UHGV virus genome: UHGV-0076293
Source of the DNA: a virus
Length of the DNA stretch: 64,000 bases
Strand: one strand, 5' to 3'
Positions 15,948 through 48,486 of the stretch are shown here, piece after piece (position 1 is the first letter of the stretch; the number at the start of each line of letters is the position of its first letter). The position numbers were made by a program, and so were the translations under genes. Under the pieces are notes generated by a model. That model ran no database searches. It saw only the letters and a list, made by a program, of their open reading frames with translations, and was not told the origin of the DNA.

Positions 15948-17282
15948 ATGGGATATTGGCAAAATCACATTGCATCAGTTGCGGATGCAAAGGTTGTAGC
16001 CGCAGAATCGATTAAATTCCAAGATAAAAAGAAACTCGCAGAACTGGCAGACATTATTGCTAAATTTCGTGCAGCCGGAGACTTTAGTCCGGCCGGTTAC
16101 GAGAGTTCTGGTGTTTCTGATTGGGTATTTAAAACCAACGGTATTAGCATTAACTTTAAGAACGGTAGCGAACTCGGATTATTCGACGTTGCCTTCGCGG
16201 GTGTAGAACCGCCTAAACTGGACGCGAATAGTCCGGTAATTGCGTCAATGGCGCGTGCACTGTACGCAGGTAATAAAGACCTGGACATGTACAGTAAGTT
16301 TATTAAAGAAAACGAACTGAACAGCAGCATTGACGATTCCAGTGCGAAAATCAGCGGTGACTTGAGCAAAGTCAGTTCTCCGCTTTACCTGACTCCGGTG
16401 CTGTTGGGGAAACTGGAGCTCACCGATTTGGAGGTTGCTTCGGTAATCCTTCATGAAGTCGGTCACATTTATTATTACTTCCGTACGCTGATGCGTACCG
16501 TGGTAACGGATTTACTGGCAGACGCTGCGGCTAACCGAATCATGGAAAGCGAAGACCCAGCTGTTCGTTTACGTGTGGTTAAAGACGTTGAACGAATGCT
16601 GAACACGAAAGTGAATCAGCCAGAGACCATCTGCACTGAGTACAAGAAAGAAAACGTCTACATGCACCTGGTAACAGATTTGCTGTTAGACCGTCCGTTC
16701 ATTAGCGGTAGTCAAGGCTTTGCAAACCGTACCTGGGAACGTGCTGCTGACGACTTCGCTGCCCGCTTTGGTGCTGCCCCGTACTTAGCTTCTGCACTGT
16801 ACAAAATGGAAACCAGCCCGTTCTATCTACTGCGTAACTCGTCGTATATGAACATGGGTGTCCATTTGACGATTGAGTTGTTCCGTGTGACTGCGCTGAT
16901 TGCCCAAGCTGCCATTCCGATTCTTCCGGTTATCTCTGTTACGTTTGGGATGATTCTGAACGACCCAGATAACACCATCTACGATCCGCCGCAGGAACGT
17001 TTTGAAGCGATGCGCCGTACGCTGGTAGAAGAACTGAATACCATCAAAGACAAAAACACGAAAGCGGCTAACGAGCAACGTAAACGTATTCTGGATGGTA
17101 TCGCGGTAATTGATCGAATTCTACTCACGGTTAAAGACAAAGATAACCTGTATCAGTTTATCTGGAAGACGCTGACACCGAAAGGGCGTCGTGACCGTGC
17201 TGCGGTGGATTATCAGCGCGCTATCGGGAAGTATATGTCGAATGACCTCCGTATCGCATCTGCCATGTTTAACGTCGATTAA
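15948..17282 (+). CDS. putative zinc metallopeptidase (HExxH)
   Basis: VILHEVGHIYYYF zincin-like motif; ATG with AAGGAA RBS. Confidence 0.45.
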   Translation: MGYWQNHIASVADAKVVAAESIKFQDKKKLAELADIIAKFRAAGDFSPAGYESSGVSDWVFKTNGISINFKNGSELGLFDVAFAGVEPPKLDANSPVIASMARALYAGNKDLDMYSKFIKENELNSSIDDSSAKISGDLSKVSSPLYLTPVLLGKLELTDLEVASVILHEVGHIYYYFRTLMRTVVTDLLADAAANRIMESEDPAVRLRVVKDVERMLNTKVNQPETICTEYKKENVYMHLVTDLLLDRPFISGSQGFANRTWERAADDFAARFGAAPYLASALYKMETSPFYLLRNSSYMNMGVHLTIELFRVTALIAQAAIPILPVISVTFGMILNDPDNTIYDPPQERFEAMRRTLVEELNTIKDKNTKAANEQRKRILDGIAVIDRILLTVKDKDNLYQFIWKTLTPKGRRDRAAVDYQRAIGKYMSNDLRIASAMFNVD

Positions 17283-25816: not shown

Positions 25817-26377
25817 ATGTTTGAGCACGATAGTCCCGATTTTAATGTGGCCGTAGAGCGCATTAAAACCTATATGTCGATTTTATCAAAAAACCCAATC
25901 GACACACACGATGACGAGCTTATTCACAAAACGCTGGAAGCGTGTGCGGTTGTATTACCGTACTTTCGTCTGTTAGCTGCTGACTCTGTGCAGCAGGTAT
26001 TATATGACGAATATCCGCAGGTCGGATTTACCTTTAATACGTTTTATAACGAAAGCGTAGCCTTCCTGCTTGATGGTAAACGACGCACCGTGACGTTAGG
26101 ACAGTGGTCCGTATTGCTGTCGTCGTACATGAATGATGTTCGCAATACGAAGAACGTTGAACAGACGGGCTCATTGGGTGCACGTCTTCTTGCTGCTGCG
26201 TTTGGTCGCCGGGGTACTGTACGTAATATGGGTTCCGCTCACCAGTCTGTTGAGTGTAGCAAACGTCTTTTATCTTATGCAGACCATGAACTGCTGGCAC
26301 GCTGGATGACACGCCCGAACGGGTTGTCCGACATGATCTCGTCGTTAGCAGTGTTTTTGAAAATCGCACGTCCCTAA
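25817..26377 (+). CDS. hypothetical protein (186 aa)
   Basis: ORF with AGGAGAG RBS. Confidence 0.5.
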   Translation: MFEHDSPDFNVAVERIKTYMSILSKNPIDTHDDELIHKTLEACAVVLPYFRLLAADSVQQVLYDEYPQVGFTFNTFYNESVAFLLDGKRRTVTLGQWSVLLSSYMNDVRNTKNVEQTGSLGARLLAAAFGRRGTVRNMGSAHQSVECSKRLLSYADHELLARWMTRPNGLSDMISSLAVFLKIARP

Positions 26378-26381
26378 GGGG

Positions 26382-26420
26382 GCCCCTCATTCTAGGGGCG
26401 TGTAATTGGGTTATATAACC
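26382..26420 (+). promoter_or_regulatory. GC stem-loop without U-tract (gcccct-cattct-aggggc) followed by 12-bp perfect palindrome GGTTATATAACC, upstream of abundant paralog 1
   Basis: Inverted repeats read directly; ~17 nt before ATG 26437. Confidence 0.3.
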
Positions 26421-26436
26421 AAAGGAAATAAACGAA

Positions 26437-27708
26437 ATGGCAAATTTCGCAAAAACTCGCGCCGCTCGTGAATCGATGGAAGCGGCCGATGAAGTAATCG
26501 ACGGTATCAGCAACGTTGAACCGGCAGAAGAGAACCTGGACGTCCAGCTTGCAGACGTAGCCTCTATCGACGGTCAGCTCGAACAGCTGGAAACCGACGG
26601 TGAAACCCTGGCTGCCGATACCGAGCGTACTGAAGACGCTATCGAGCAGGCGGAAGAAGCCGTTGCTAACGGTGAAGAAATGCCGGAAGAAGCGGTTGCC
26701 CTGCACGAAGTGGCACAGGAATCCATCGCACGTCGTTGGAACCTGGAACGTACCAAACTGGCTCGTGAATCCTATCGCCGTGGCCGTGGCATGACTGCTG
26801 CTGCGCAGGAAGGCTGGAAAGAAACCCTGAAAGGTCTTTACGAGCGTTTCATTCAGTTCTGTAAAGAAGTAATTGCGAAAATCAAAGACCTGAAGCTGAA
26901 ATATTTCAACGTCGGTAAGACCGCACAGAAACGTGCGAAGAAATATCAGGAAATGATCCGCAAGCTGGGCAAACAAGATAAAGACAACATTTCTGGCGGC
27001 TTTATCACCAAATTGTCCATCGAAGGTAAATTCGATGCTGCTGGCTCTATTGCCATCGCTAAAGAAGTGACCGCAGGTAAAGCGAAAGGTGCTATCAGTG
27101 CACTGGAAAAACAAGCTGGTGAAGCTGTGACTGCTGTTACCAAAGGTGACGATGACGCATTCAAAGCGATGCGTGGCGATCAGCCGGTTGAACTGTTTGG
27201 TAAAGCAGCGTCTAAACTGCATTCTCTGCCGAACTTTGAAAACGGCGACGCGTCTAAACTGCTGGCACTGCCGGGCAACGCTTACGTTCAGGCTGGTACT
27301 AAAGAACTGGCTGGCGGCCACAAGTTCACCGCAATTGCATTCATGAGCACCGGTGACGCTTCTGACGATAAAGAAGTGGCTACTCCGTCTGTTTCAGAAA
27401 TGGCTGGCGCGGCATCTGCTCTGGAAGCGATCGGTAAAGGCTTCGAAGCCGTACTGAAAGATTTCCGTGCTTACGATTCTGAAATCGTGAAACTGCAACA
27501 GGCTGCTGAAAAAGCGTCCAACGCGCTGAACAACGAAAAAGACGAAAGTAAGTGGGAAGGACTGCGTAATGCACGTCAGGCCGCTGATCAGTCTGTGAAG
27601 AACTACCAGACCCTGAACCGTGCCGTTAGCTACGTAGCTAACACCGTTATTAGCGGTCTGAACGGTTACCTGGGTGCTGGTATCGGCGCGTACAAAAAGT
27701 CTAAATAA
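26437..27708 (+). CDS. abundant hypothetical protein, paralog 1 (acidic N-terminal region; possibly a processed virion/inner-body-type protein)
   Basis: 423 aa; first 47 nt identical to paralog 2; C-terminus GLNGYLGAGIGAYKKSK; codon usage appears host-optimised by eye. Confidence 0.6.
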   Translation: MANFAKTRAARESMEAADEVIDGISNVEPAEENLDVQLADVASIDGQLEQLETDGETLAADTERTEDAIEQAEEAVANGEEMPEEAVALHEVAQESIARRWNLERTKLARESYRRGRGMTAAAQEGWKETLKGLYERFIQFCKEVIAKIKDLKLKYFNVGKTAQKRAKKYQEMIRKLGKQDKDNISGGFITKLSIEGKFDAAGSIAIAKEVTAGKAKGAISALEKQAGEAVTAVTKGDDDAFKAMRGDQPVELFGKAASKLHSLPNFENGDASKLLALPGNAYVQAGTKELAGGHKFTAIAFMSTGDASDDKEVATPSVSEMAGAASALEAIGKGFEAVLKDFRAYDSEIVKLQQAAEKASNALNNEKDESKWEGLRNARQAADQSVKNYQTLNRAVSYVANTVISGLNGYLGAGIGAYKKSK

Positions 27709-27746
27709 TTAGACTTACGCTCGTACAGTTCTTGAAATAAATCAAT

Positions 27747-27768
27747 AGGGGAACACGTCGTTCCCCTT
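27747..27768 (+). promoter_or_regulatory. GC stem-loop without U-tract (aggggaac-acgtc-gttcccct) upstream of paralog 2
   Basis: Hairpin read directly; analogous position to stem-loop before paralog 1. Confidence 0.3.
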
Positions 27769-27784
27769 AGAGGAAAAGCTTAAA

Positions 27785-29047
27785 ATGGCAAATTTCGCAA
27801 AAACTCGCGCCGCTCGTGAATCGATGGAAGCTACTGCTACTGTAGTTCCAGACGGCATCGAACTGCCAGCAGAATCTGTTGAAGGTACTCTGGCCGATAT
27901 CGAACATGATACCAAACCGATCGAAGCCCTGGACGCTGACGCTGAACTGCTGGCCGAAGACGGTGACGAAACTGATGCTCAACTGGATGTCCTGGATGAA
28001 GCTCAGGCCGCTGCTGACGGTGAAGGTGCAGGTGAAGACGGCGAAGACCCGATGGATGCCGAAGAAGATATGCCGGACGACGCAGCGACTGCGCTGGACG
28101 TTGCTCAGGAATCTATCCGTTCTCGTTGGAACTTCGAACACCGTTCTTCCGTTGCACACGAATCCTACGGTTCTCGTAACCGTCGCCAGGTTGCTCGTGA
28201 ATCCCTGTGGGAAGACATTAAAGCATTCCTGAAACGTATCTGGGAATGGCTGAAAGAACAAGGCCGTAAGATCAAAGATCGTTGGCTGAAATTCTCCAAC
28301 CAGGGTAAATCCATTCAGGCTCGTTCTAAGAAATACGACGAAGCTATTCGTAAACTGGGCAAACAGAAGAAAGATGAAATCTCTGGTGGCTTCATCAAGT
28401 CTCTGTCTGTCGACGGTAAATTCGTTGGTGACGATCTGCCGCGCCTGAAGAATATCCTGAACCACGTCTCCACCTACTACAGTGGTAACGTTCAGAGCTT
28501 CCTGAACAACGGTACGGATATGGTTGGTAACGTCGTTAAAGGCGATGGCGCTAAAGTTGAGAAACTGAAAGCAGATTTCGCTGCTCTGGCCAAAGAAGAC
28601 GTTAGCAAGTTCAAACTTGGTAACATGGCACTGAAGATGGAATACGACGAAGAAGGCGGATTTAGCTCCAGCTATGTGGAAGCTGAAAACCGTGCTGAAA
28701 CCAACGTGAAAACTCCGTCTGTTAGCGATCTGGCTAAGACCAATGCCTTCTTCAACGAAGTGGGTAAACAGATCGAGAAGAACGTTCTGGAATATCGTAA
28801 GACTGAACAGGCTCGCGAGAAATTCAGCCAGCAGATTGAGAAGCTGCTGAAAGAAATCGACAGCGTGAAGATCGACGAAAAACCGGAACTGACCGAATCT
28901 GTACGTACCGCACGTCGTTACATCAACAGCATTAACCAGGCAGTGTCTCTGGGCGAGAAAGTTATTTCCTCTACTCAGAAACATCTGGCTGGCGGTCTGA
29001 ACGGCTATATCTCCGCAGGTATCGCTGCTTACGAAAAATCTAAATAA
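27785..29047 (+). CDS. abundant hypothetical protein, paralog 2
   Basis: 420 aa; N-terminus MANFAKTRAARESMEA and C-terminus GLNGYISAGIAAYEKSK shared with paralog 1. Confidence 0.6.
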   Translation: MANFAKTRAARESMEATATVVPDGIELPAESVEGTLADIEHDTKPIEALDADAELLAEDGDETDAQLDVLDEAQAAADGEGAGEDGEDPMDAEEDMPDDAATALDVAQESIRSRWNFEHRSSVAHESYGSRNRRQVARESLWEDIKAFLKRIWEWLKEQGRKIKDRWLKFSNQGKSIQARSKKYDEAIRKLGKQKKDEISGGFIKSLSVDGKFVGDDLPRLKNILNHVSTYYSGNVQSFLNNGTDMVGNVVKGDGAKVEKLKADFAALAKEDVSKFKLGNMALKMEYDEEGGFSSSYVEAENRAETNVKTPSVSDLAKTNAFFNEVGKQIEKNVLEYRKTEQAREKFSQQIEKLLKEIDSVKIDEKPELTESVRTARRYINSINQAVSLGEKVISSTQKHLAGGLNGYISAGIAAYEKSK

Positions 29048-29065: not shown

Positions 29066-29112
29066 GAGAACCACCCTGTAATGGGGTGGTTCTCCCTTTT
29101 CTTTTTTTTTTC
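29066..29112 (+). terminator. strong intrinsic terminator (gagaaccaccc-loop-gggtggttctc + T-run)
   Basis: 11-bp stem + >12 T. Confidence 0.75.
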
Positions 29113-29125
29113 GATTAAAAATAAA

Positions 29126-29166
29126 CTCAGATATATATTACCTTAGTGAGATTACGCTGTAATCTT
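29126..29166 (+). promoter_or_regulatory. conserved promoter-like element TCAGATATATATTACCTTAGTGAG (copy 1) followed by inverted repeat GATTAC-gctg-GTAATC
   Basis: Near-identical element at 37380-37404; contains TATATTAC; ~50 nt upstream of ATG 29202. Confidence 0.45.
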
Positions 29167-29201
29167 TTAACGACCTGTTTATTACGTTTAGGAGAATTAT
29201 C

Positions 29202-30448: not shown

Positions 30449-30754
30449 ATGAAACCGAGAGCCGACCGAGTAGACGTAATACATTTTGAAGAGTGTGAAA
30501 CCGAGTATCAGGTTAAACGCACTGATTTACGTTTAGTTATTCCTAAGCTAAACGAACCTGAGTGGAACGGCGAGCTGATGGTACCGCTTGCCGAACCAAT
30601 TAAAACGGGGACAGGCGAGATTAATTATCTCCATTTAGAAGCCGCCGGACGCAAAGTAACCGTTTGGCATCTTGCTGACGGTTACAAAACCAGTCAGCTT
30701 ACACGTAAAGCATTTATTCGGAAATTAAGAAAGTCGATGGGAGTTGTGAAATGA
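30449..30754 (+). CDS. hypothetical protein (101 aa)
   Basis: ORF tightly packed between neighbours. Confidence 0.45.
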   Translation: MKPRADRVDVIHFEECETEYQVKRTDLRLVIPKLNEPEWNGELMVPLAEPIKTGTGEINYLHLEAAGRKVTVWHLADGYKTSQLTRKAFIRKLRKSMGVVK

Positions 30755-31287
30755 CAGTTACTGTATCTTTGATTGCAGCAGCGGGACTTAATAATGAAAT
30801 AGGGAAAGACAATAAACTCCCTTGGCATATTCCCGATGACTTGAAGAACTTCAAAGCACTTACGTCAGGTAAGGTTATCGTGATGGGACGTAAGACGTGG
30901 GAGTCGTTGGGATATAAACCCTTACCGAACCGTCACCATGTTATCTTAACACGAAAACAAGGCGGTGTTCCTGACATCGACGGTGTGTTGAACCTTAAAG
31001 GTGGCATGGGGTCGGTTATCGAGTTTCTCAAGAAAGAAGTCGTGGAGAAAGATTACCCGAAAGAAATCTTTATTATTGGCGGCGCAGAGATTTACCACCA
31101 AGCGATGCCTTATGCAGATAAGATTTACTTGTCTCGTGTTGAGGTTAAGGTAGAGGGCGCGGATGCGTTCTTCCCTGAAATCGATCGCGATGTCTTCAGA
31201 CTGAATTACAACCTGACACACTATTCGAAACCAGAAAGTGGTATTCCGCGTTGGCATTATCAGATTTGGAAAAGAGATGGGCGCTGA
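30751..31287 (+). CDS. folA: dihydrofolate reductase
   Basis: VSLIAAAGLNNEIGKDNKLPWHIPDDLKNFKALTSGKVIVMGRKTWESLG and IIGGAEIY match DHFR signature regions; 178 aa. Confidence 0.85.
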   Translation: MTVTVSLIAAAGLNNEIGKDNKLPWHIPDDLKNFKALTSGKVIVMGRKTWESLGYKPLPNRHHVILTRKQGGVPDIDGVLNLKGGMGSVIEFLKKEVVEKDYPKEIFIIGGAEIYHQAMPYADKIYLSRVEVKVEGADAFFPEIDRDVFRLNYNLTHYSKPESGIPRWHYQIWKRDGR

Positions 31288-37379: not shown

Positions 37380-37415
37380 TTCAGATATATATTACTTAGG
37401 TGAGAGAATTACGTA
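37380..37415 (+). promoter_or_regulatory. conserved promoter-like element TCAGATATATATTACTTAGGTGAG (copy 2) followed by palindrome ATTACGTAAT
   Basis: Matches 29126-29150 at 23/24 positions; sits in the longest intergenic gap (37216-37452), ~50 nt before ATG 37453. Confidence 0.45.
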
Positions 37416-38466: not shown

Positions 38467-38472
38467 AAGCAA

Positions 38473-38516
38473 CCCCTAATCCCGAAAAGGATTAGGGGTA
38501 CACTTTATTTATTTTC
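38473..38516 (+). terminator. intrinsic terminator (cccctaatcc-cgaaaa-ggattagggg + T-rich)
   Basis: 10-bp stem + tttatttatttt. Confidence 0.65.
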
Positions 38517-38538
38517 GCTCTTAAAAGGAAATTGTGTC

Positions 38539-38694
38539 ATGAGAAATGTTAATGCAATGCTTAACCAGGCATTTGTTAACCAACAGCGTTTTCAGGAACG
38601 CTTAGCACAACTTAAAACACAACACAGACCACCACAACAAAGAGTGGTTAAGAGCAAGTTCGGCGAAATGGTTTTCGAAAGAAAATCTTTCTAA
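38539..38694 (+). CDS. small basic protein, member A of a 3-gene paralog array (51 aa)
   Basis: Not in ORF track; AAAAGGAA RBS; C-terminal half RVVKSKFGEMVFERKSF resembles the two downstream small ORFs. Confidence 0.45.
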   Translation: MRNVNAMLNQAFVNQQRFQERLAQLKTQHRPPQQRVVKSKFGEMVFERKSF

Positions 38695-38702
38695 TAACCG
38701 TT

Positions 38703-38727
38703 AGGGGTGTGACAGCACCCCTTTTTA
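38703..38727 (+). terminator. intrinsic terminator (aggggtg-tgacag-cacccct + T5)
   Basis: Hairpin + T-run. Confidence 0.55.
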
Positions 38728-38844
38728 CGCTTTAACTTTTCCAAAGAGAAGTTAAAGCAGTAAGGACTGTTGGCGCAGTCCTTACTTGTCATCGCTATTA
38801 CAGAAACGTGATAGCACAATTCTAATTTTTAGAGGCGATCAGAA

Positions 38845-39012
38845 ATGTTCGACAGTATTACACAAATTTTTAACACTACCGTAAACAATCACGCTCAGCA
38901 AGCGAAGTTTAATGAACGATTAAGGGAAGTTCAACAATTAGGATTAAATAAAAGATTAAAATCTTCCAATAATCCTCGAGTACAGATCTTCACCGAAAGG
39001 AGAAGTAACTGA
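38845..39012 (+). CDS. small basic protein, member B of paralog array (55 aa)
   Basis: Not in ORF track; ...QQLGLNKRLKSSNNPRVQIFTERRSN closely parallels member C. Confidence 0.45.
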   Translation: MFDSITQIFNTTVNNHAQQAKFNERLREVQQLGLNKRLKSSNNPRVQIFTERRSN

Positions 39013-39020
39013 TAAAAACA

Positions 39021-39050
39021 AGGTGAGCTGTTGGAGCAGCTCACCTTTTA
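39021..39050 (+). terminator. intrinsic terminator (aggtgagctg-ttggag-cagctcacct + tttt)
   Basis: 10-bp stem. Confidence 0.55.
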
Positions 39051-39108
39051 CAACGCCATTACGTTTCCGTAATGGATTTCTTTAATCACCCTACAAAGAG
39101 GGCTTACC

Positions 39109-39282
39109 ATGAACAATGGTTACTACTTTACTGACAAAATGCTTGCAGAACAATATGCAGCAAAAACCAATTTACAGCAACGTATCTACGAGTATAGTCA
39201 ACTCGGTGCGAATAAACGATTAAAACCATCAACCAACCGTTTCACACAGATAATCACTGAAAAAAGGAGTGAACGCTACTAA
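39109..39282 (+). CDS. small basic protein, member C of paralog array (57 aa)
   Basis: Not in ORF track; AAGAGGG RBS; ...SQLGANKRLKPSTNRFTQIITEKRSERY. Confidence 0.45.
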   Translation: MNNGYYFTDKMLAEQYAAKTNLQQRIYEYSQLGANKRLKPSTNRFTQIITEKRSERY

Positions 39283-39417
39283 CTAATAAAAGGGGGTGTG
39301 CTACCACCCCCTACTTAGTTCAGCAGTTGTCTTTCGTTCATAAATATTAGATGTCTTGTTTTTTTTTGCTTTTCGGGACGCATAAGGGGTCGTAGGGGGA
39401 GCCGAAGCTCCCCAGAC

Positions 39418-40993: not shown

Positions 40994-41518
40994 ATGCAAA
41001 TTCGTTTTAGTCCACCGTGGGAAGTTCAGCCTAACATAGATAAAGGCGCTGCCGTTAAAAGTGTAGAATTGCTCCAGGCAGGGTTCTTTAACTGGTTATA
41101 TGACTGTCCGAATGGTTTCAGTTCTATCATCTTACCTGAAGTAAGTCGTTCTGCTATTTATAAAGCGTTAATGGCTCCGCCTGTACTTCCAGGTAAATAT
41201 TATGATCAGGTGTTACGTCTGGTCGAATCAGGCGAAAAGGTTTCCCTTGACGATTTATATGGGGAAACAATTCCTTGTCGCTTACGCTGGGTCTTTACCC
41301 AACGTGGTGATACGATTGTGGCGTCATTTGCAGAAGCGAAGTCCGGTTCGGGTTTTTCTTCGGGTGAAGACCACGCTGCGAAAAAGATGTTCTGCGCAGA
41401 ACTTTTTAAATATATGCGTACCAAGACTCGCGTCGTGGATGACTGCTTCAGTACCTCAACGCAGTTTGCCGCTAACGAAGTGCTGACGCAATTATACGCA
41501 TGTCATTTATCTCATTAA
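40994..41518 (+). CDS. hypothetical protein (174 aa)
   Basis: ORF immediately upstream of putative capsid gene. Confidence 0.45.
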   Translation: MQIRFSPPWEVQPNIDKGAAVKSVELLQAGFFNWLYDCPNGFSSIILPEVSRSAIYKALMAPPVLPGKYYDQVLRLVESGEKVSLDDLYGETIPCRLRWVFTQRGDTIVASFAEAKSGSGFSSGEDHAAKKMFCAELFKYMRTKTRVVDDCFSTSTQFAANEVLTQLYACHLSH

Positions 41519-41530
41519 GGTATTAAACAA

Positions 41531-43816
41531 ATGAAAGATACCCGAATCTCTAATTTAGAGAAACTCGTAGAAGCCGGTACTAGTCTGGCCCAAAACGTCA
41601 TCGGCAACAACACCGCCAGCGAAATGTGGAAGACGATTGTTGCAGGCGAGTCCGTACGTAGCAACGCAAAAGTATTTGGCGCTCTGCGTGACGAAGCATC
41701 ACAGCACTATGCCAACGCTTTTGGCGGCAAGAAAATGTCTCATGCTGCGACCGTCGCTTCCGCAATGATTCTGGGCGTAGCTAACCACGGTAAAGACCTG
41801 CAAGAACGTGTTGCCCAGGAATACGCTAAGCCGGAATTCCACACCAAGTATAACCTGGATATTGGTATCCCTGGTGCGCAAGGTGGTGATTGGGGTCGTG
41901 AGCGTATGGTTGTTGCTCAGGAATACTACAGCAACAAAGACTACGACAAAAACCTGGGCCTGACCTGGACCCTGAACGTACGTGCTCTGGAAACTCAGTC
42001 CAAGTTTGCTGAAACACTGTTCCCGACCATTACCGTTGACACCAACGATGTTGGTATTACCGTACGTACTAAAGTGACTACCGTTTCTCGCGGTATCATG
42101 AACGCGCTGCTGAGCAAAGACGTCGTTGAAGATCATCGTCGTCCGCTGCACAACGCTCTGACTGACCACACCGTTCTCCAGGACGAAGCGATCAACATCG
42201 TTCCTTACGTAATGGAAACCGGTGAAAACCAGGAATACTTCGTAAGCGAAGATCTGGTTCCGAACGAAACCGTTCGCCTGGGCCGTGTACCTCCGTATCC
42301 GACTAACTACCTGAGCTTTGCAAACGACACACTGAACCTGTTCCAGCTGTCTGCGCATCCGGGTATTGTTCAGGAAGGTTACGATGAAACTGATGAAATC
42401 GCACCGGGTTGTGCTCTGGGCAGCCTGCTGATTTCTGTACGTAAACCGGCCGAAGAAGCGAAAGCGGGTAAATTCATCAAACTGCACGTTCGTGACATGC
42501 AGTTCGCAACCTTCCAGCGTCCTGCTGAAGGTGACGGCCGTGAACTGGTTCTGCAATTCCGTCGTACCGCGTTCTCTCTGAATGCGAAAACCACTGACTG
42601 GAAAGGCGACGCTATTCCGGCACTGCAAGCACTGGGCCAGAACTCCTACACCCTGCGCTACGTTATCACCATCACCATGTCCCTGTTCACCAGCGGCCAG
42701 TTCGGTGGTAAAGTAGACATTTCCGGCCACAAACTGGAAATCGAAGGTCTGTACGATGCAACTGGTAACAAAGTTGATACCAAGTCTGGTACCGGTAAAG
42801 TTATCCTGGACGGCCTGAAACTCGAGCTGATGGGCTGGCGCTTCGATGGTACTCGTACCAACGAAAACCGTCGTACCCAGGGTCTGCTGCTTGACCCAAT
42901 TTGGGAACAGGAAAACTACAAACTGCAATACGGTTCTCCGATTCTGACCAAGTCTCCGGTTGGTGTTGAATACGACGACACTGAACGTCTGGATGACCTG
43001 ATCTCTGCGGTGAACATCCGTAACGAACAGCTGGCTATTACTCAGACGCTGTCTTACACTGAAGCAGTACGTAACGCAGCCGCTGCGATGATCACTCCGT
43101 GGGACAAACCGGCTATCCGTGGTCTGGGCCGTCACTGGGTTGCTCCGTGGTTCAAAGAGTCTGACTACAAAGTCGATGAAGTTGTTCAGTCTCTGGATAC
43201 CAAAGAAGCGCTGATCAACGCTCGTCAGGGTCTGTTGCAGCGTATCGGTAGCCAGGTAACTCAGGCTATCCAGGATTCTCGTTTCATTCCTGCACTGCGC
43301 CTGCTGACTGCTGATCCGGACATTCTGCCGAAAGTTATCATCGCAACTGACGAACCGACTGCATCCATGCTGCTGCTGGTTCAGGGCGACCAACGTCTGC
43401 TGGGCGACCGTTATGAATACGAAGTCGTTACCACCAACGATGACCGCTGGCGTATCTACAACGCAGCTGACGATTCCTGGACTCGTCGTCTGCAATGGTT
43501 CCTGAAAGTTCCGACTGCGGACGATGGTTCCTACTGCGTACTGAACTGGGGTAACCACTTCTGGTCTCCGATCATGGTTACCAACATCAACATCCAGCGT
43601 AACGGTTCTACTTCTAAAGAACTGGCTGTACAGCCGCGTAACGCGCATATCTGCCACTGCCCGATCACTGGTCTGATTTGGGTTAAAGGCATCACCAAAC
43701 TGGTTGAAGAAAAACTGGCTTACAACGTTTCTGTAGAACAGAACGGCCAGAAACAAACCGAAGGTGGTGTAGCAGGTAATGTTGCTGGCGACGGTAAAGA
43801 CAAAGCTGGTAAATAA
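41531..43816 (+). CDS. abundant structural protein, putative jumbo-phage major capsid protein (761 aa; tail sheath not excluded)
   Basis: Size matches the ~750-aa capsid proteins of phiKZ-like phages; codon usage appears strongly optimised by eye; own strong terminator; no homology search possible. Confidence 0.45.
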   Translation: MKDTRISNLEKLVEAGTSLAQNVIGNNTASEMWKTIVAGESVRSNAKVFGALRDEASQHYANAFGGKKMSHAATVASAMILGVANHGKDLQERVAQEYAKPEFHTKYNLDIGIPGAQGGDWGRERMVVAQEYYSNKDYDKNLGLTWTLNVRALETQSKFAETLFPTITVDTNDVGITVRTKVTTVSRGIMNALLSKDVVEDHRRPLHNALTDHTVLQDEAINIVPYVMETGENQEYFVSEDLVPNETVRLGRVPPYPTNYLSFANDTLNLFQLSAHPGIVQEGYDETDEIAPGCALGSLLISVRKPAEEAKAGKFIKLHVRDMQFATFQRPAEGDGRELVLQFRRTAFSLNAKTTDWKGDAIPALQALGQNSYTLRYVITITMSLFTSGQFGGKVDISGHKLEIEGLYDATGNKVDTKSGTGKVILDGLKLELMGWRFDGTRTNENRRTQGLLLDPIWEQENYKLQYGSPILTKSPVGVEYDDTERLDDLISAVNIRNEQLAITQTLSYTEAVRNAAAAMITPWDKPAIRGLGRHWVAPWFKESDYKVDEVVQSLDTKEALINARQGLLQRIGSQVTQAIQDSRFIPALRLLTADPDILPKVIIATDEPTASMLLLVQGDQRLLGDRYEYEVVTTNDDRWRIYNAADDSWTRRLQWFLKVPTADDGSYCVLNWGNHFWSPIMVTNINIQRNGSTSKELAVQPRNAHICHCPITGLIWVKGITKLVEEKLAYNVSVEQNGQKQTEGGVAGNVAGDGKDKAGK

Positions 43817-43831
43817 TAACGAATAAAAAGT

Positions 43832-43870
43832 GTCTAAGCCCTTCGGGGCTTAGACCTTTTATTTTTTTCT
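43832..43870 (+). terminator. strong intrinsic terminator (gtctaagccc-ttcg-gggcttagac + long T-run)
   Basis: 10-bp stem, tetraloop, ~14 T-rich nt. Confidence 0.75.
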
Positions 43871-48443: not shown

Positions 48444-48486
48444 GTTTGGATTGGGGGTGGAAACATCCCCATTTTAAGGAGTGCGT

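What the first reader, a model, noticed from the sequence alone, without database searches (positions are those of the whole stretch)
26382..29047. Tandem abundant paralogs with 47 identical 5' nucleotides, each preceded by a GC stem-loop
26437-27708 and 27785-29047 share an identical first 47 nt (MANFAKTRAARESMEA), diverge in an acidic region, then reconverge at the C-terminus (GLNGY.(G/S)AGI(G/A)AY(K/E)KSK). Both appear codon-optimised and each is preceded by a GC-rich hairpin lacking a U-tract (26382-26399, 27747-27768). The acidic N-terminal regions with A/S/G-x-E sites resemble propeptides cleaved by phiKZ-type prohead protease from inner-body proteins. Nucleotide-level identity at the 5' end implies gene conversion or selection on an RNA element.
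Basis: partly seen in the sequence, partly recalled or inferred. Interest (0 to 1): 0.5.

Follow-up and report, generated by a model that had tools for sequence, protein, structure and literature searches.

The report
Jumbo-phage internal head protein paralogs
These are the two very abundant internal head ("ejection") protein genes of an SPN3US-like giant phage, already well studied in that model, and their identical first 47 bases come from a recent, tiny gene-conversion event that copied the cleavable N-terminal leader of the first gene onto the second.

Summary

- **The genes.** 26437-27708 (A) and 27785-29047 (B) are tandem PF12699 (phiKZ_IP) genes. They are syntenic orthologs of Salmonella phage SPN3US gp53/gp54: ejection proteins with more than 600 copies per head, made with long acidic propeptides that the gp245 prohead protease removes at A-x-E sites. 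All mapped SPN3US sites have counterparts here.
- **The 5' identity.** The genes share 49 identical nt (2 upstream plus 47 coding), while the rest is about 48% identical and the next longest identical run is 13 nt.
- **Its cause.** Three metagenomic relatives keep this leader on A but carry a different leader on B, with conserved flanks. An independent 97.7%-identical assembly has it on both genes. So this is a recent 41-49 nt gene conversion from A to B, not an assembly artefact.
- **Not an RNA element.** Synonymous sites in the leader vary more than elsewhere across the family.
- **Wider pattern.** Across 15 lineages the leader evolves in concert between the paralogs.
- **Hairpins.** Both are real. 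The A-B hairpin covaries and abuts the Shine-Dalgarno sequence. The one before A lies in a 37-nt block with invariant arms. Their function is only inferred.

This is ordinary, known biology with a modest new evolutionary detail.

The parts
26368..26404 (+). Conserved block ACGTCCCTAAGGGGGCCCCT-loop-AGGGGCGTGTA. It spans the stop codon (26375-26377) of the upstream gp52-like gene and contains hairpin 1 (stem 26382-26387 / 26394-26399, loop 26388-26393).
   Evidence: The stem arms and flanks are essentially invariant and only the loop varies, across 16 lineages whose A proteins are 55-74% identical to the window's. There is no informative covariation. One outer pair changes A-U to G-C in the Wellington group. 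No T-run follows.
26409..26420 (+). Palindrome GGTTATATAACC between hairpin 1 and the Shine-Dalgarno sequence of A (AAGGAA, 26422-26427).
   Evidence: It is conserved as GGTTATAACC, or GGTTAACC in the CR5 group, so length changes keep the symmetry. Function unknown.
26435..26483 (+). Donor copy of the 49-nt identical segment: 2 nt upstream plus the first 47 nt of gene A, encoding MANFAKTRAARESMEA.
   Evidence: Identical in the window and L019-L021. L027 and L030 differ from it at one synonymous site.
26437..27708 (+). Gene A, ortholog of SPN3US gp53 (internal head / ejection protein, PF12699). Leader is codons 1-12 (26437-26472, ARE|S). Predicted propeptide is codons 1-125 (26437-26811, AQE|GWKETLK). 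Predicted mature protein is 26812-27705.
   Evidence: Pfam E=7e-74. 74% aa identity to Asesino gp70 and 70% to SPN3US gp53. Cleavage motifs ARE-12, AQE-95 and AQE-125 are conserved (PMC10052503). ENC 33.3.
27747..27767 (+). Hairpin 2 (AGGGGAAC-ACGTC-GTTCCCCT) in the A-B spacer. It directly abuts the conserved TAGAGGA Shine-Dalgarno sequence of B (27768-27774).
   Evidence: All 16 lineages have a perfect 7-10 bp stem ending 0-1 nt before (T/C)AGAGGA, built from at least 7 different stem sequences. 4 of 7 consensus pairs show compensatory double changes. Only 1 T in the next 10 nt.
27783..27831 (+). Recipient copy of the converted segment at the 5' end of gene B. The tract is at least nt 6-46 of the ORF and at most -2 to +47.
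   Evidence: Relatives L019, L021 and L027 have ATGGCGAATTTCTACAAAAACAAAATTGCTCGTGAGTCTATGGAGTC (MANFYKNKIARESMES) here. That is 16 differences from the window, while -20..-1 is identical and +48..+92 has one difference.
27785..29047 (+). Gene B, ortholog of SPN3US gp54 (PF12699). Leader is codons 1-12. Predicted propeptide is codons 1-139 (27785-28201, ARE|SLWEDIK). Predicted mature protein is 28202-29044.
   Evidence: Pfam E=5e-59. Motifs ARE-12, AHE-126 and ARE-139 align with SPN3US gp54 AQE-124 and ARE-137 (PMC10052503). ENC 34.0.
29066..29113 (+). Canonical intrinsic terminator (12-13 bp GC-rich stem plus a long T-run) that ends the A-B transcription unit.
   Evidence: Terminator scan and hairpin census. 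A strong hairpin followed by a T-rich stretch sits at the same place in all 16 lineages.

Best explanation
A and B are the two major internal head (ejection) protein genes of a previously unsequenced SPN3US/Asesino-like jumbo phage.

Inferred from orthology with SPN3US:
- Both are made late in very large amounts as precursors. Each starts with a 12-15 residue basic leader (MANFAKTRAARE|SME|A) followed by a long acidic propeptide.
- The precursors are built into the prohead, where they form an inner shell under the capsid.
- The prohead protease cuts after A-x-E at residue 12, at internal sites, and at residue 125 (A) or 139 (B). The propeptide fragments leave.
- The mature proteins of about 30 kDa stay with the DNA and are ejected into the host.

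Shown here:
- The 49-nt identity results from a recent, very short (41-49 nt) ectopic gene conversion. It copied the leader-coding segment of A, 1.35 kb upstream, onto B.
- This happened after the split from relatives that are about 88% identical in nucleotide sequence.
- It is the latest episode in a long history in which this leader evolves in concert in the two paralogs while the rest of the genes diverge independently.
- Selection acts on the peptide, not on the RNA.

Inferred:
- The leader acts like a T4 capsid-targeting sequence that both proteins present to the same prohead partner. That would make homogenised copies tolerated or favoured.
- The two hairpins without U-tracts are RNA-level elements (boundary, stability or processing) inside a transcript that ends at the real terminator after B. 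They help the two abundant genes be expressed far above the upstream low-copy head genes.
For: Identity of the genes:
- PF12699 hits far above the gathering score.
- Conserved synteny gp50-gp51-gp52(PhiKZ_gp91-like)-A-B...DHFR with SPN3US, Asesino and 14 other lineages.
- Conserved cleavage motifs at the positions mapped by mass spectrometry (PMC10052503 Table 2).
- Strongest codon bias in the window, shared only with the 761-aa ORF of major-capsid-protein size. This matches the three most abundant SPN3US head proteins (PMC5694885).
- Uncleaved gp53/gp54 form a T=1 inner shell in SPN3US proheads (PMC7552025).

Conversion:
- A 47-nt identical run against a next-longest run of 13; 0 of 20,000 permutations reached it.
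- L019, L021 and L027 keep the same leader on A but have MANFYKNKIARESMES on B. That is 16 nucleotide differences confined to nt 6-46, with conserved flanks.
- L020 is an independent assembly, 97.7% identical, with the 47-mer on both genes.
- The window's B copy carries TCG at codon 13, like the window's own A, whereas the A genes of L027 and L030 have TCA.

Concerted evolution:
- Within-genome A-B leader differences average 2.47 of 16 residues against 5.59 between genomes (p<1e-5).
- The gene body shows 0.695 against 0.705.
- Both copies share lineage-specific states, for example loss of Ala2 in the Wellington and CR5 groups.

Peptide rather than RNA:
- Leader codon entropy is about 1.15 bits against 0.43-0.89 elsewhere.
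- Serine 13 is AGC in Machina A and TCN in the others.

Leader is cleavable: ARE-12 cleavage was detected in SPN3US gp53 (PMC10052503), and phiKZ gp93 is processed at SLE-13 (PMC5694885). phiKZ gp92-95 all have 11-13 residue leaders ending in LE|.

Hairpins: covariation in hairpin 2; conserved block around hairpin 1; real terminator after B.
Against: - No expression, virion or cleavage data exist for this phage. Everything about protein function is transferred from SPN3US orthologs that are 70% identical for A; identity for B was not measured.
- The targeting role of the leader has not been tested experimentally in any jumbo phage. Within this window the leader is found only on A and B, unlike the T4 CTS, which is shared by unrelated proteins.
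- The direction of conversion rests on parsimony. A perfectly identical stretch of 235-297 nt between the window and L019/L021 around A's 5' end shows that inter-lineage exchange also occurs here, so the donor could formally have been gene A of a co-infecting relative.
- At synonymous sites the window leader looks more like the B leaders of Asesino and phiEaH2 than their A leaders. I regard this as noise.
- Hairpin function is inferred only from position and conservation. The arms of hairpin 1 are invariant, so its structure cannot be tested by covariation, and it could be a DNA-level site.
Confidence: 0.85

Rival explanations
1. The nucleotide identity is maintained by selection on an RNA element in the 5' coding region, for example a translation-initiation structure or a regulator binding site shared by both mRNAs.
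For: Both genes are extremely highly expressed and start with the same sequence. The region around A's 5' end is unusually conserved between the window and its 88%-identical relatives.
Against: In 10 other genomes the paralog pairs differ at 5-18 of the first 48 nt. Across 19 orthologs, conserved leader residues use more synonymous codons (about 1.15 bits) than any other part of either gene, including a TCN/AGC serine switch. Three close relatives have a quite different B leader. There is no Rfam hit.
Confidence: 0.03
2. The identity is an assembly artefact: a collapse or chimera between two similar gene starts.
For: The window comes from an unknown assembly, and no reads are available.
Against: The independent IMG/VR contig L020 differs from the window at 1.3-1.6% of sites in these genes and has exactly the same two copies. 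Both copies are in frame, each with its own distinct upstream leader and downstream sequence. A 49-nt repeat is shorter than a sequencing read.
Confidence: 0.01
3. The patch on B was acquired from gene A of a co-infecting related phage (inter-genomic ectopic recombination), not from the A copy in the same genome. Alternatively, the conversion ran from B to A.
For: Related phages co-occur: L020, L021 and L027 come from the same metagenome. A 235-297 nt perfectly identical block shared with L019/L021 indicates recent exchange around A's 5' end. The A leader is the same in those relatives.
Against: The window's B copy matches the window's own A at every site, including TCG at codon 13 where the A genes of L027 and L030 have TCA. 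The donor sits 1.35 kb away in cis. A B-to-A direction would leave unexplained the 16-difference patch between orthologous B genes with conserved flanks. The AKTRA leader resembles the A leader of Asesino (AKRRI), and YKNKI resembles other leaders such as VKSKL.
Confidence: 0.08
4. The two hairpins are transcription terminators or attenuators for the phage RNA polymerase that do not need a U-tract. Alternatively, hairpin 1 is part of a DNA-level promoter or protein-binding site that gives A and B their own transcription start.
For: Hairpin 1 lies in a block with invariant arms, which suggests sequence-specific recognition, and a symmetric palindrome follows it. In phiKZ and 201phi2-1, many mapped transcript 3' ends are not classified as canonical intrinsic terminators (PMC11512511). 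A and B must be expressed far above the upstream genes.
Against: Most intergenic + strand hairpins in this window carry T-rich tails, including the one after B, so this phage does use canonical terminators. Neither spacer contains the phiKZ late start-site motif TATG (direct reading; motif from PMC12809450). The stem sequence of hairpin 2 is free to change as long as pairing is kept, which is typical of an RNA structure and not of a DNA binding site.
Confidence: 0.3

Closest known systems
Salmonella phage SPN3US gp53 and gp54 ('paralog family A', high-abundance ejection proteins)
   Same: Same Pfam family (PF12699), same tandem order and the same neighbouring genes. A is 70% identical to gp53 in amino acids. 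Both have the N-terminal leader M-A-N-F-x5-A-R-E-S-x-E, A-x-E sites at matching positions, and the same C-terminal motif. The identical 15-residue N-termini of gp53 and gp54, and their resemblance to the T4 CTS, were already noted in PMC5694885.
   Different: In SPN3US the two leaders differ at 8 of the first 48 nucleotides, while here they are identical over 47. The leader sequence itself differs (AKTRA against VKSKL). The host phage is a different species: the best nucleotide identity to any phage record is about 77%.
phiKZ inner-body proteins gp93, gp94, gp95 (also gp162, gp163), substrates of the gp175 prohead protease
   Same: Same Pfam family, the same tandem arrangement downstream of gp89-91 homologs, and a short N-terminal leader ending in a protease site (SLE-13 in gp93), followed by further processing (PMC5694885).
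   Different: phiKZ has five or more paralogs at lower copy number. Its leaders are only loosely similar to one another and to those here, and its cleavage motif is S/A/G-x-E where SPN3US has A-x-E. SPN3US-type heads have a diffuse ejection-protein mass, not a discrete inner body (PMC5694885).
Bacteriophage T4 internal proteins IPI, IPII, IPIII and Alt with their capsid targeting sequence (CTS)
   Same: Abundant proteins packaged inside the head with the DNA and ejected into the host. Each has a 10-20 residue N-terminal peptide that ends at a prohead-protease site (x-x-E) and is removed at maturation. The peptide is conserved between otherwise diverged proteins (PMC7411985; PMC3012670).
   Different: There is no sequence homology. 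Here the short leader is followed by a propeptide of more than 100 residues that is also removed. The leader is shared only by two paralogs, not by unrelated cargo proteins. A targeting function has not been shown.
Short-tract ectopic gene conversion between tandem paralogs (concerted evolution)
   Same: A sharply bounded patch of identity in otherwise about 50%-identical paralogs. Orthologs of the recipient keep the older sequence. Both copies share lineage-specific states.
   Different: The tract is very short (41-49 nt) and is flanked by little homology. This suggests template switching or microhomology-mediated repair more than classical homologous recombination (inference).

Membership tests
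PF12699 phiKZ_IP / SPN3US paralog family A (gp53/gp54 orthologs) | Match to the Pfam PF12699 profile above the gathering score over nearly its full length | tested here: met
   A: 249.9 bits, E=6.6e-74, profile positions 2-387 of 387. B: 200.9 bits, E=4.9e-59. The cutoff is 27 bits.
PF12699 phiKZ_IP / SPN3US paralog family A (gp53/gp54 orthologs) | Conserved genomic position: tandem pair downstream of the gp50-gp52 head-gene homologs and upstream of the DHFR block | tested here: met
   The same gene order is annotated in SPN3US and Asesino through to DHFR. The upstream head genes and the tandem pair are in the same order in 14 further phages. The upstream ORF hits PF25618 PhiKZ_gp91. A DHFR-like ORF lies at 30751-31287.
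PF12699 phiKZ_IP / SPN3US paralog family A (gp53/gp54 orthologs) | A-x-E prohead-protease sites at the positions where SPN3US gp53/gp54 are cleaved | tested here: met
   A has ARE-12, AQE-95 and AQE-125|GWKETLK. B has ARE-12, AHE-126 and ARE-139|SLWEDIK. SPN3US has ARE-12, AQE-95 and AQE-125 in gp53, and AQE-124 and ARE-137 in gp54 (PMC10052503 Table 2).
PF12699 phiKZ_IP / SPN3US paralog family A (gp53/gp54 orthologs) | Presence in the virion head at high copy number and actual N-terminal processing | not testable with these tools
   Indirect support only: ENC 33.3 and 34.0, equal to the ORF of capsid-protein size.
PF12699 phiKZ_IP / SPN3US paralog family A (gp53/gp54 orthologs) | A phiKZ-type (MEROPS S80, gp245/gp175-like) prohead protease encoded in the same genome | not tested
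   In SPN3US the protease gene lies far from gp53, so it is expected to fall outside this 64-kb window. I did not search for it.
T4-type capsid targeting sequence (CTS) | Short N-terminal peptide that ends at a prohead-protease cleavage site and is removed at maturation | tested here: met
   The motif MANFAKTRAARE|S is present on both proteins. Cleavage at ARE-12 was detected for the SPN3US ortholog gp53 (PMC10052503).
T4-type capsid targeting sequence (CTS) | The same peptide is shared by several otherwise unrelated packaged proteins | tested here: not met
   Six-frame and N-terminal searches of the window find the leader motif only on A and B, which are paralogs. The rest of the genome was not available.
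T4-type capsid targeting sequence (CTS) | The peptide is necessary and sufficient to direct a protein into the prohead | not testable with these tools
   This needs fusion or deletion experiments. The literature only suggests it for SPN3US (PMC5694885).
Intrinsic (factor-independent) terminator | GC-rich stem-loop immediately followed by a U-tract | tested here: not met
   Hairpin 2 has 1 T in the next 10 nt. Hairpin 1 is followed by GTGTAATTGG. The hairpin after B (29066-29094) does meet the definition.
Gene-conversion tract | A patch of identity between paralogs far longer than expected from their divergence, with orthologs of the recipient keeping a different sequence between conserved flanks | tested here: met
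   a 47-nt run against 13; 16 differences at nt 6-46 in the B genes of three relatives; flanks identical or nearly so.
Any curated RNA family (Rfam 15) | Covariance-model match at the gathering score | tested here: not met
   No matches anywhere in the window.

The most novel reading that the evidence does not exclude
The 12-15 residue leader is a genuine jumbo-phage capsid-targeting signal read by a single prohead partner, such as the core/scaffold, the protease or a gp243-like factor. On this reading, recurrent micro-conversion keeps the two most abundant cargo proteins matched to that partner as it evolves, which explains why lineage-specific leader states always appear on both paralogs. 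The leader could then be used to load foreign proteins into giant-phage heads, and the partner could be found by co-variation. A second possibility is that the conserved 37-nt block around hairpin 1, together with the symmetric palindrome, is an undescribed expression signal of SPN3US-like phages.
Probability: 0.35. Interest if true: 0.5.

Novelty: new member of a known kind. Interest (0 to 1): 0.25.

Why it matters
For genome annotation, this settles the two genes as the gp53/gp54-type major ejection proteins of a new SPN3US-like phage, with predicted maturation sites.

The modest new point is evolutionary. The cleavable leader of these proteins evolves in concert between the paralogs, while the gene bodies show almost no such effect. 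In this lineage a conversion tract of only 41-49 nt can be seen "in the act", with donor, recipient and unconverted relatives all in hand.

That pattern is indirect evidence that the leader has a sequence-specific shared function such as prohead targeting. The SPN3US literature has proposed this but has not tested it. The pattern also identifies exactly which residues to swap in an experiment.

The covarying hairpin abutting the Shine-Dalgarno sequence of B, and the invariant block before A, are candidate expression signals for the most abundant non-capsid proteins of these phages.

Tried and rejected
1. Direction of conversion. From synonymous codons in distant relatives (GAA TCG against GAG TCC) I first inferred B to A (and my note). 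I dropped this once three close relatives showed the unconverted state on B.
2. RNA-element hypothesis. Rejected on synonymous codon entropy and on the absence of any Rfam match.
3. Assembly artefact. Rejected on the independent contig L020.
4. Purifying selection on the peptide plus codon bias as the sole cause. Elsewhere 61% of identical residues share the same codon, so 13 matching codons in a row is improbable (0.61^13, about 0.002, computed from the counts). In addition, the unconverted B leader differs at 6 of 16 residues.
5. Other copies of the leader. There are none in the window, either as DNA with up to 3 mismatches or as the peptide motif in six frames.
6. Recurrence of motifs. GGGGCGTGTAAT, TAGAGGA and ATATATTAC occur at chance frequency in the window, so none is a repeated element there.
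7. phiKZ-type late promoter. The TATG start-site motif is absent from both spacers (direct reading; motif from PMC12809450). The early-promoter resemblance of the motif after the terminator could not be verified from the papers.
8. Solved structures. No PDB sequence match for protein A. I did not run structure prediction, because the question did not depend on the fold.
9. Literature. A search for prior descriptions of gene conversion in these paralogs found nothing relevant in the open-access library.
10. tRNA scan of the window: none found.


Full report
**1. What is in the sequence**

Two + strand ORFs, A (26437-27708, 423 aa) and B (27785-29047, 420 aa), lie in tandem. Their first 47 nt are identical, as are the 2 nt before the ATG. 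The 47-mer occurs exactly twice in the window and nowhere else, even with 3 mismatches allowed.

In a codon-based alignment the genes are 50.5% identical overall and 48.4% identical outside the first 48 nt. The next longest identical run is 13 nt. None of 20,000 shuffles of the codon columns gave a run of 47 or more; the maximum was 30. Where the two proteins have the same residue, the codon is the same in 13 of 14 cases in the leader and in 81 of 133 cases elsewhere.

The C-terminal similarity (GLNGY..AGI.AY.KSK) is at the protein level only.

Both hairpins exist:
- GCCCCT/AGGGGC at 26382-26399.
- AGGGGAAC/GTTCCCCT at 27747-27767.

Neither is followed by a T-run.

A and B have effective codon numbers (ENC) of 33.3 and 34.0, against a window median of 49.1. 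Only the 761-aa ORF of capsid-protein size at 41531-43816 is comparable.

**2. What the genes are**

The window belongs to an SPN3US/Asesino-like jumbo phage. No record in the phage collection is more than about 77% identical in nucleotide sequence.

Both proteins match Pfam PF12699 (phiKZ-like internal head proteins) over the whole profile, with E=7e-74 and 5e-59. The ORF just upstream matches PF25618, PhiKZ_gp91. The gene order of the upstream head genes followed by the tandem pair is the same in all 16 other phages examined, and SPN3US and Asesino also show the DHFR gene downstream. RefSeq annotates the two genes there as "internal head protein". A and B are therefore orthologs of SPN3US gp53 and gp54.

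For SPN3US the biology is published:
- gp53 and gp54 ("paralog family A") are, after the major capsid protein, the most abundant head proteins, with more than 600 copies each. They sit inside the capsid with the DNA and are regarded as ejection proteins (PMC5694885).
- In protease-deficient proheads the uncleaved proteins form a T=1 inner shell, which is remodelled after cleavage and DNA packaging (PMC7552025).
- The gp245 prohead protease cuts after A-x-E at ARE-12, AQE-95 and AQE-125 in gp53, and at AQE-124 and ARE-137 in gp54 (PMC10052503, Table 2).

Each of these sites has a counterpart in the window proteins: ARE-12, AQE-95 and AQE-125|GWKETLK in A, and ARE-12, AHE-126 and ARE-139|SLWEDIK in B.

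It is also already known biology.

**3. Why the 5' ends are identical**

In ten other genomes the two paralogs are not identical at the nucleotide level. They differ at 5-18 of the first 48 nt.

A scan of IMG/VR for the exact 47-mer found three contigs, and a protein-based scan added two more:
- L020 is a separate assembly, 97.7% identical to the window. It has the 47-mer on both genes, which excludes an assembly artefact.
- L019, L021 and L027 are about 88% identical in nucleotides. They have the leader only on gene A (in L027 with one synonymous change). Their gene B starts ATGGCGAATTTCTACAAAAACAAAATTGCTCGTGAGTCTATGGAGTC, encoding MANFYKNKIARESMES.

Between orthologous B genes, 16 differences are packed into nt 6-46. 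The 20 nt upstream are identical, and the next 45 nt contain one difference. So a patch of 41-49 nt on B was replaced by the sequence of A in the window/L020 lineage.

The window's B copy matches the window's own A at every position, including TCG at codon 13, where the A genes of L027 and L030 have TCA. My earlier guess of a B-to-A direction, based on codon choices in distant relatives, was wrong.

One caveat remains. The window and L019/L021 share a perfectly identical stretch of 235-297 nt around A's 5' end, in an 88% background. Exchange between co-circulating lineages therefore also happens here, and a donor in a co-infecting relative cannot be strictly excluded.

**4. RNA or peptide?**

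Across 19 orthologs of each gene, the conserved residues of the leader use more synonymous codons (about 1.15 bits) than any other segment of either gene (0.43-0.89 bits). Serine 13 is even encoded by AGC in Machina A and by TCN elsewhere. Rfam finds nothing in the window. There is therefore no RNA-level constraint on the leader. The constraint is on the peptide M(A)NF-x5-ARES-[IVM]-E.

**5. Concerted evolution of the leader**

In 15 lineages, the leaders of the two paralogs in the same genome differ at 2.47 of 16 positions on average. An A leader and a B leader from different genomes differ at 5.59 positions, and none of 100,000 permutations reached the observed value. For the rest of the protein the corresponding distances are 0.695 and 0.705.

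Both copies share lineage-specific states:
- VKSKL in SPN3US.
- AQRKV in Caitlin.
- Loss of Ala2 in the Wellington and CR5 groups.

Independent divergence after an old duplication cannot give this pattern. It requires repeated conversion, shared selection by a common partner, or both.

The leader motif is found on no other ORF in the window. phiKZ's tandem family members gp92-95 also start with 11-13 residue leaders ending in LE|, and gp93 is known to be cut at SLE-13 (PMC5694885). A short cleavable leader is therefore an old feature of the family.

Ali et al. (PMC5694885) already noted that SPN3US gp53 and gp54 share their first 15 residues, and compared this with the T4 capsid-targeting sequence. 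The T4 sequence is a 10-20 residue N-terminal peptide that binds the prohead core and is removed by gp21 (PMC7411985, PMC3012670). A targeting role for the leader here is an inference, not a result. On the membership test it meets "short peptide ending at a protease site". It does not meet "shared by unrelated cargo proteins", at least within this window.

**6. The hairpins and the transcription unit**

Hairpin 2 is a true structural element. All 16 lineages have a perfect 7-10 bp stem that ends 0-1 nt before a conserved (T/C)AGAGGA Shine-Dalgarno sequence. At least seven different stem sequences are used, and 4 of 7 consensus pairs show compensatory double changes.

Hairpin 1 lies in a 37-nt block, ACGTCCCTAAGGGGGCCCCT-loop-AGGGGCGTGTA. 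The block spans the stop codon of the upstream gene and has invariant arms from SPN3US to CR5. A palindrome, GGTTAT(AT)AACC, follows it, and its length changes keep the symmetry. Because the arms never vary, covariation cannot test the fold. The block could be recognised as RNA or as DNA.

A canonical terminator follows B at 29066-29094, with a T-run after it. Most other intergenic + strand hairpins in the window also carry T-rich tails, so hairpins without a U-tract are the exception here. Neither spacer contains TATG, the start-site motif of phiKZ late promoters (direct reading; motif from PMC12809450).

My best reading, at roughly 40% confidence, is that the hairpins are RNA boundary, stability or processing elements within a transcript that ends after B. 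Together with strong Shine-Dalgarno sequences and codon optimisation, they would raise A and B far above the low-copy genes upstream. The main rival, at about 30%, is that they are unconventional terminators or part of a promoter or binding site. Only transcript mapping can decide between these.

**7. Verdict**

- Observation: confirmed.
- What it is: the genes are new members of a well-characterised family. No solved structure matches by sequence.
- What is new: a 41-49 nt gene conversion from A to B caught with its unconverted relatives, the quantified concerted evolution of the cleavable leader, and the conservation patterns of the two hairpins. I found no description of these in the open-access literature.
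- Interest: low to moderate. It would rise if the leader proves to be a real capsid-targeting signal.

Noticed in passing
window 26250-26546 (vs L021) and 26312-26546 (vs L019): A stretch of 235-297 nt is perfectly identical to metagenomic relatives that are otherwise about 88% identical. It covers the end of the gp52-like gene, hairpin 1, the leader and the first 110 nt of gene A. It suggests recent mosaic exchange between co-circulating lineages; L020, L021 and L027 come from the same metagenome.
   Followed up: partly
window 29128-29175: Just after the terminator of gene B lies an AT-rich motif, CAGATATATATTACCT, followed by a small hairpin (GAGATT...AATCT). The motif is conserved, with small variations, in most SPN3US/Asesino/Machina-type relatives. 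From memory it resembles the phiKZ early (virion RNA polymerase) promoter, but I could not verify the consensus in the papers. A second exact ATATATTAC lies at 37387-37395.
   Followed up: partly
window 38472-39413: An ORF-poor stretch contains six strong GC-rich hairpins (stems of 7-12 bp); some are followed by T-rich tails on both strands. There is no tRNA and no Rfam match. It could be a cluster of bidirectional terminators or small structured RNAs.
   Followed up: no
window 41531-43816: This 761-aa ORF has the strongest codon bias in the window (ENC 33.2). Its size fits the SPN3US gp75 major capsid protein. A canonical terminator follows it at 43832-43855, and a TATATG lies about 115 nt upstream (41411-41416).
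   Followed up: no
window 48452-48471: This is the only other + strand hairpin placed directly in front of a Shine-Dalgarno sequence: TGGGGGTG-GAAA-CATCCCCA, then TTTTAAGGAG, 15 nt before the next start codon. The arrangement resembles that of hairpin 2.
   Followed up: no
window 15948-17282: This 444-aa ORF starts MGYWQNHIASVADAKVVAAE|SIKF, with an A-x-E|S motif at residue 20. SPN3US gp45 is cleaved at ASE-20 by the prohead protease (PMC10052503), so this is probably the gp45 ortholog with a conserved short propeptide.
   Followed up: no
L023 (phiKZ NC_004629 91652-97605): phiKZ gp92-gp95 all begin with 11-13 residue leaders ending in LLE|S, SLE|S, SLE|G and SLE|D. This shows that a short cleavable leader is ancestral to the PF12699 family. 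The Pfam profile itself starts only at about residue 42 and does not cover the leader.
   Followed up: partly
window 28462-28861 (gene B, mature region): The middle of gene B is much more diverged from the close relatives L019/L021 (64-78% nucleotide identity per 200 nt) than the rest of the locus (84-94%). This part of the mature protein is evolving fast or has been exchanged.
   Followed up: no
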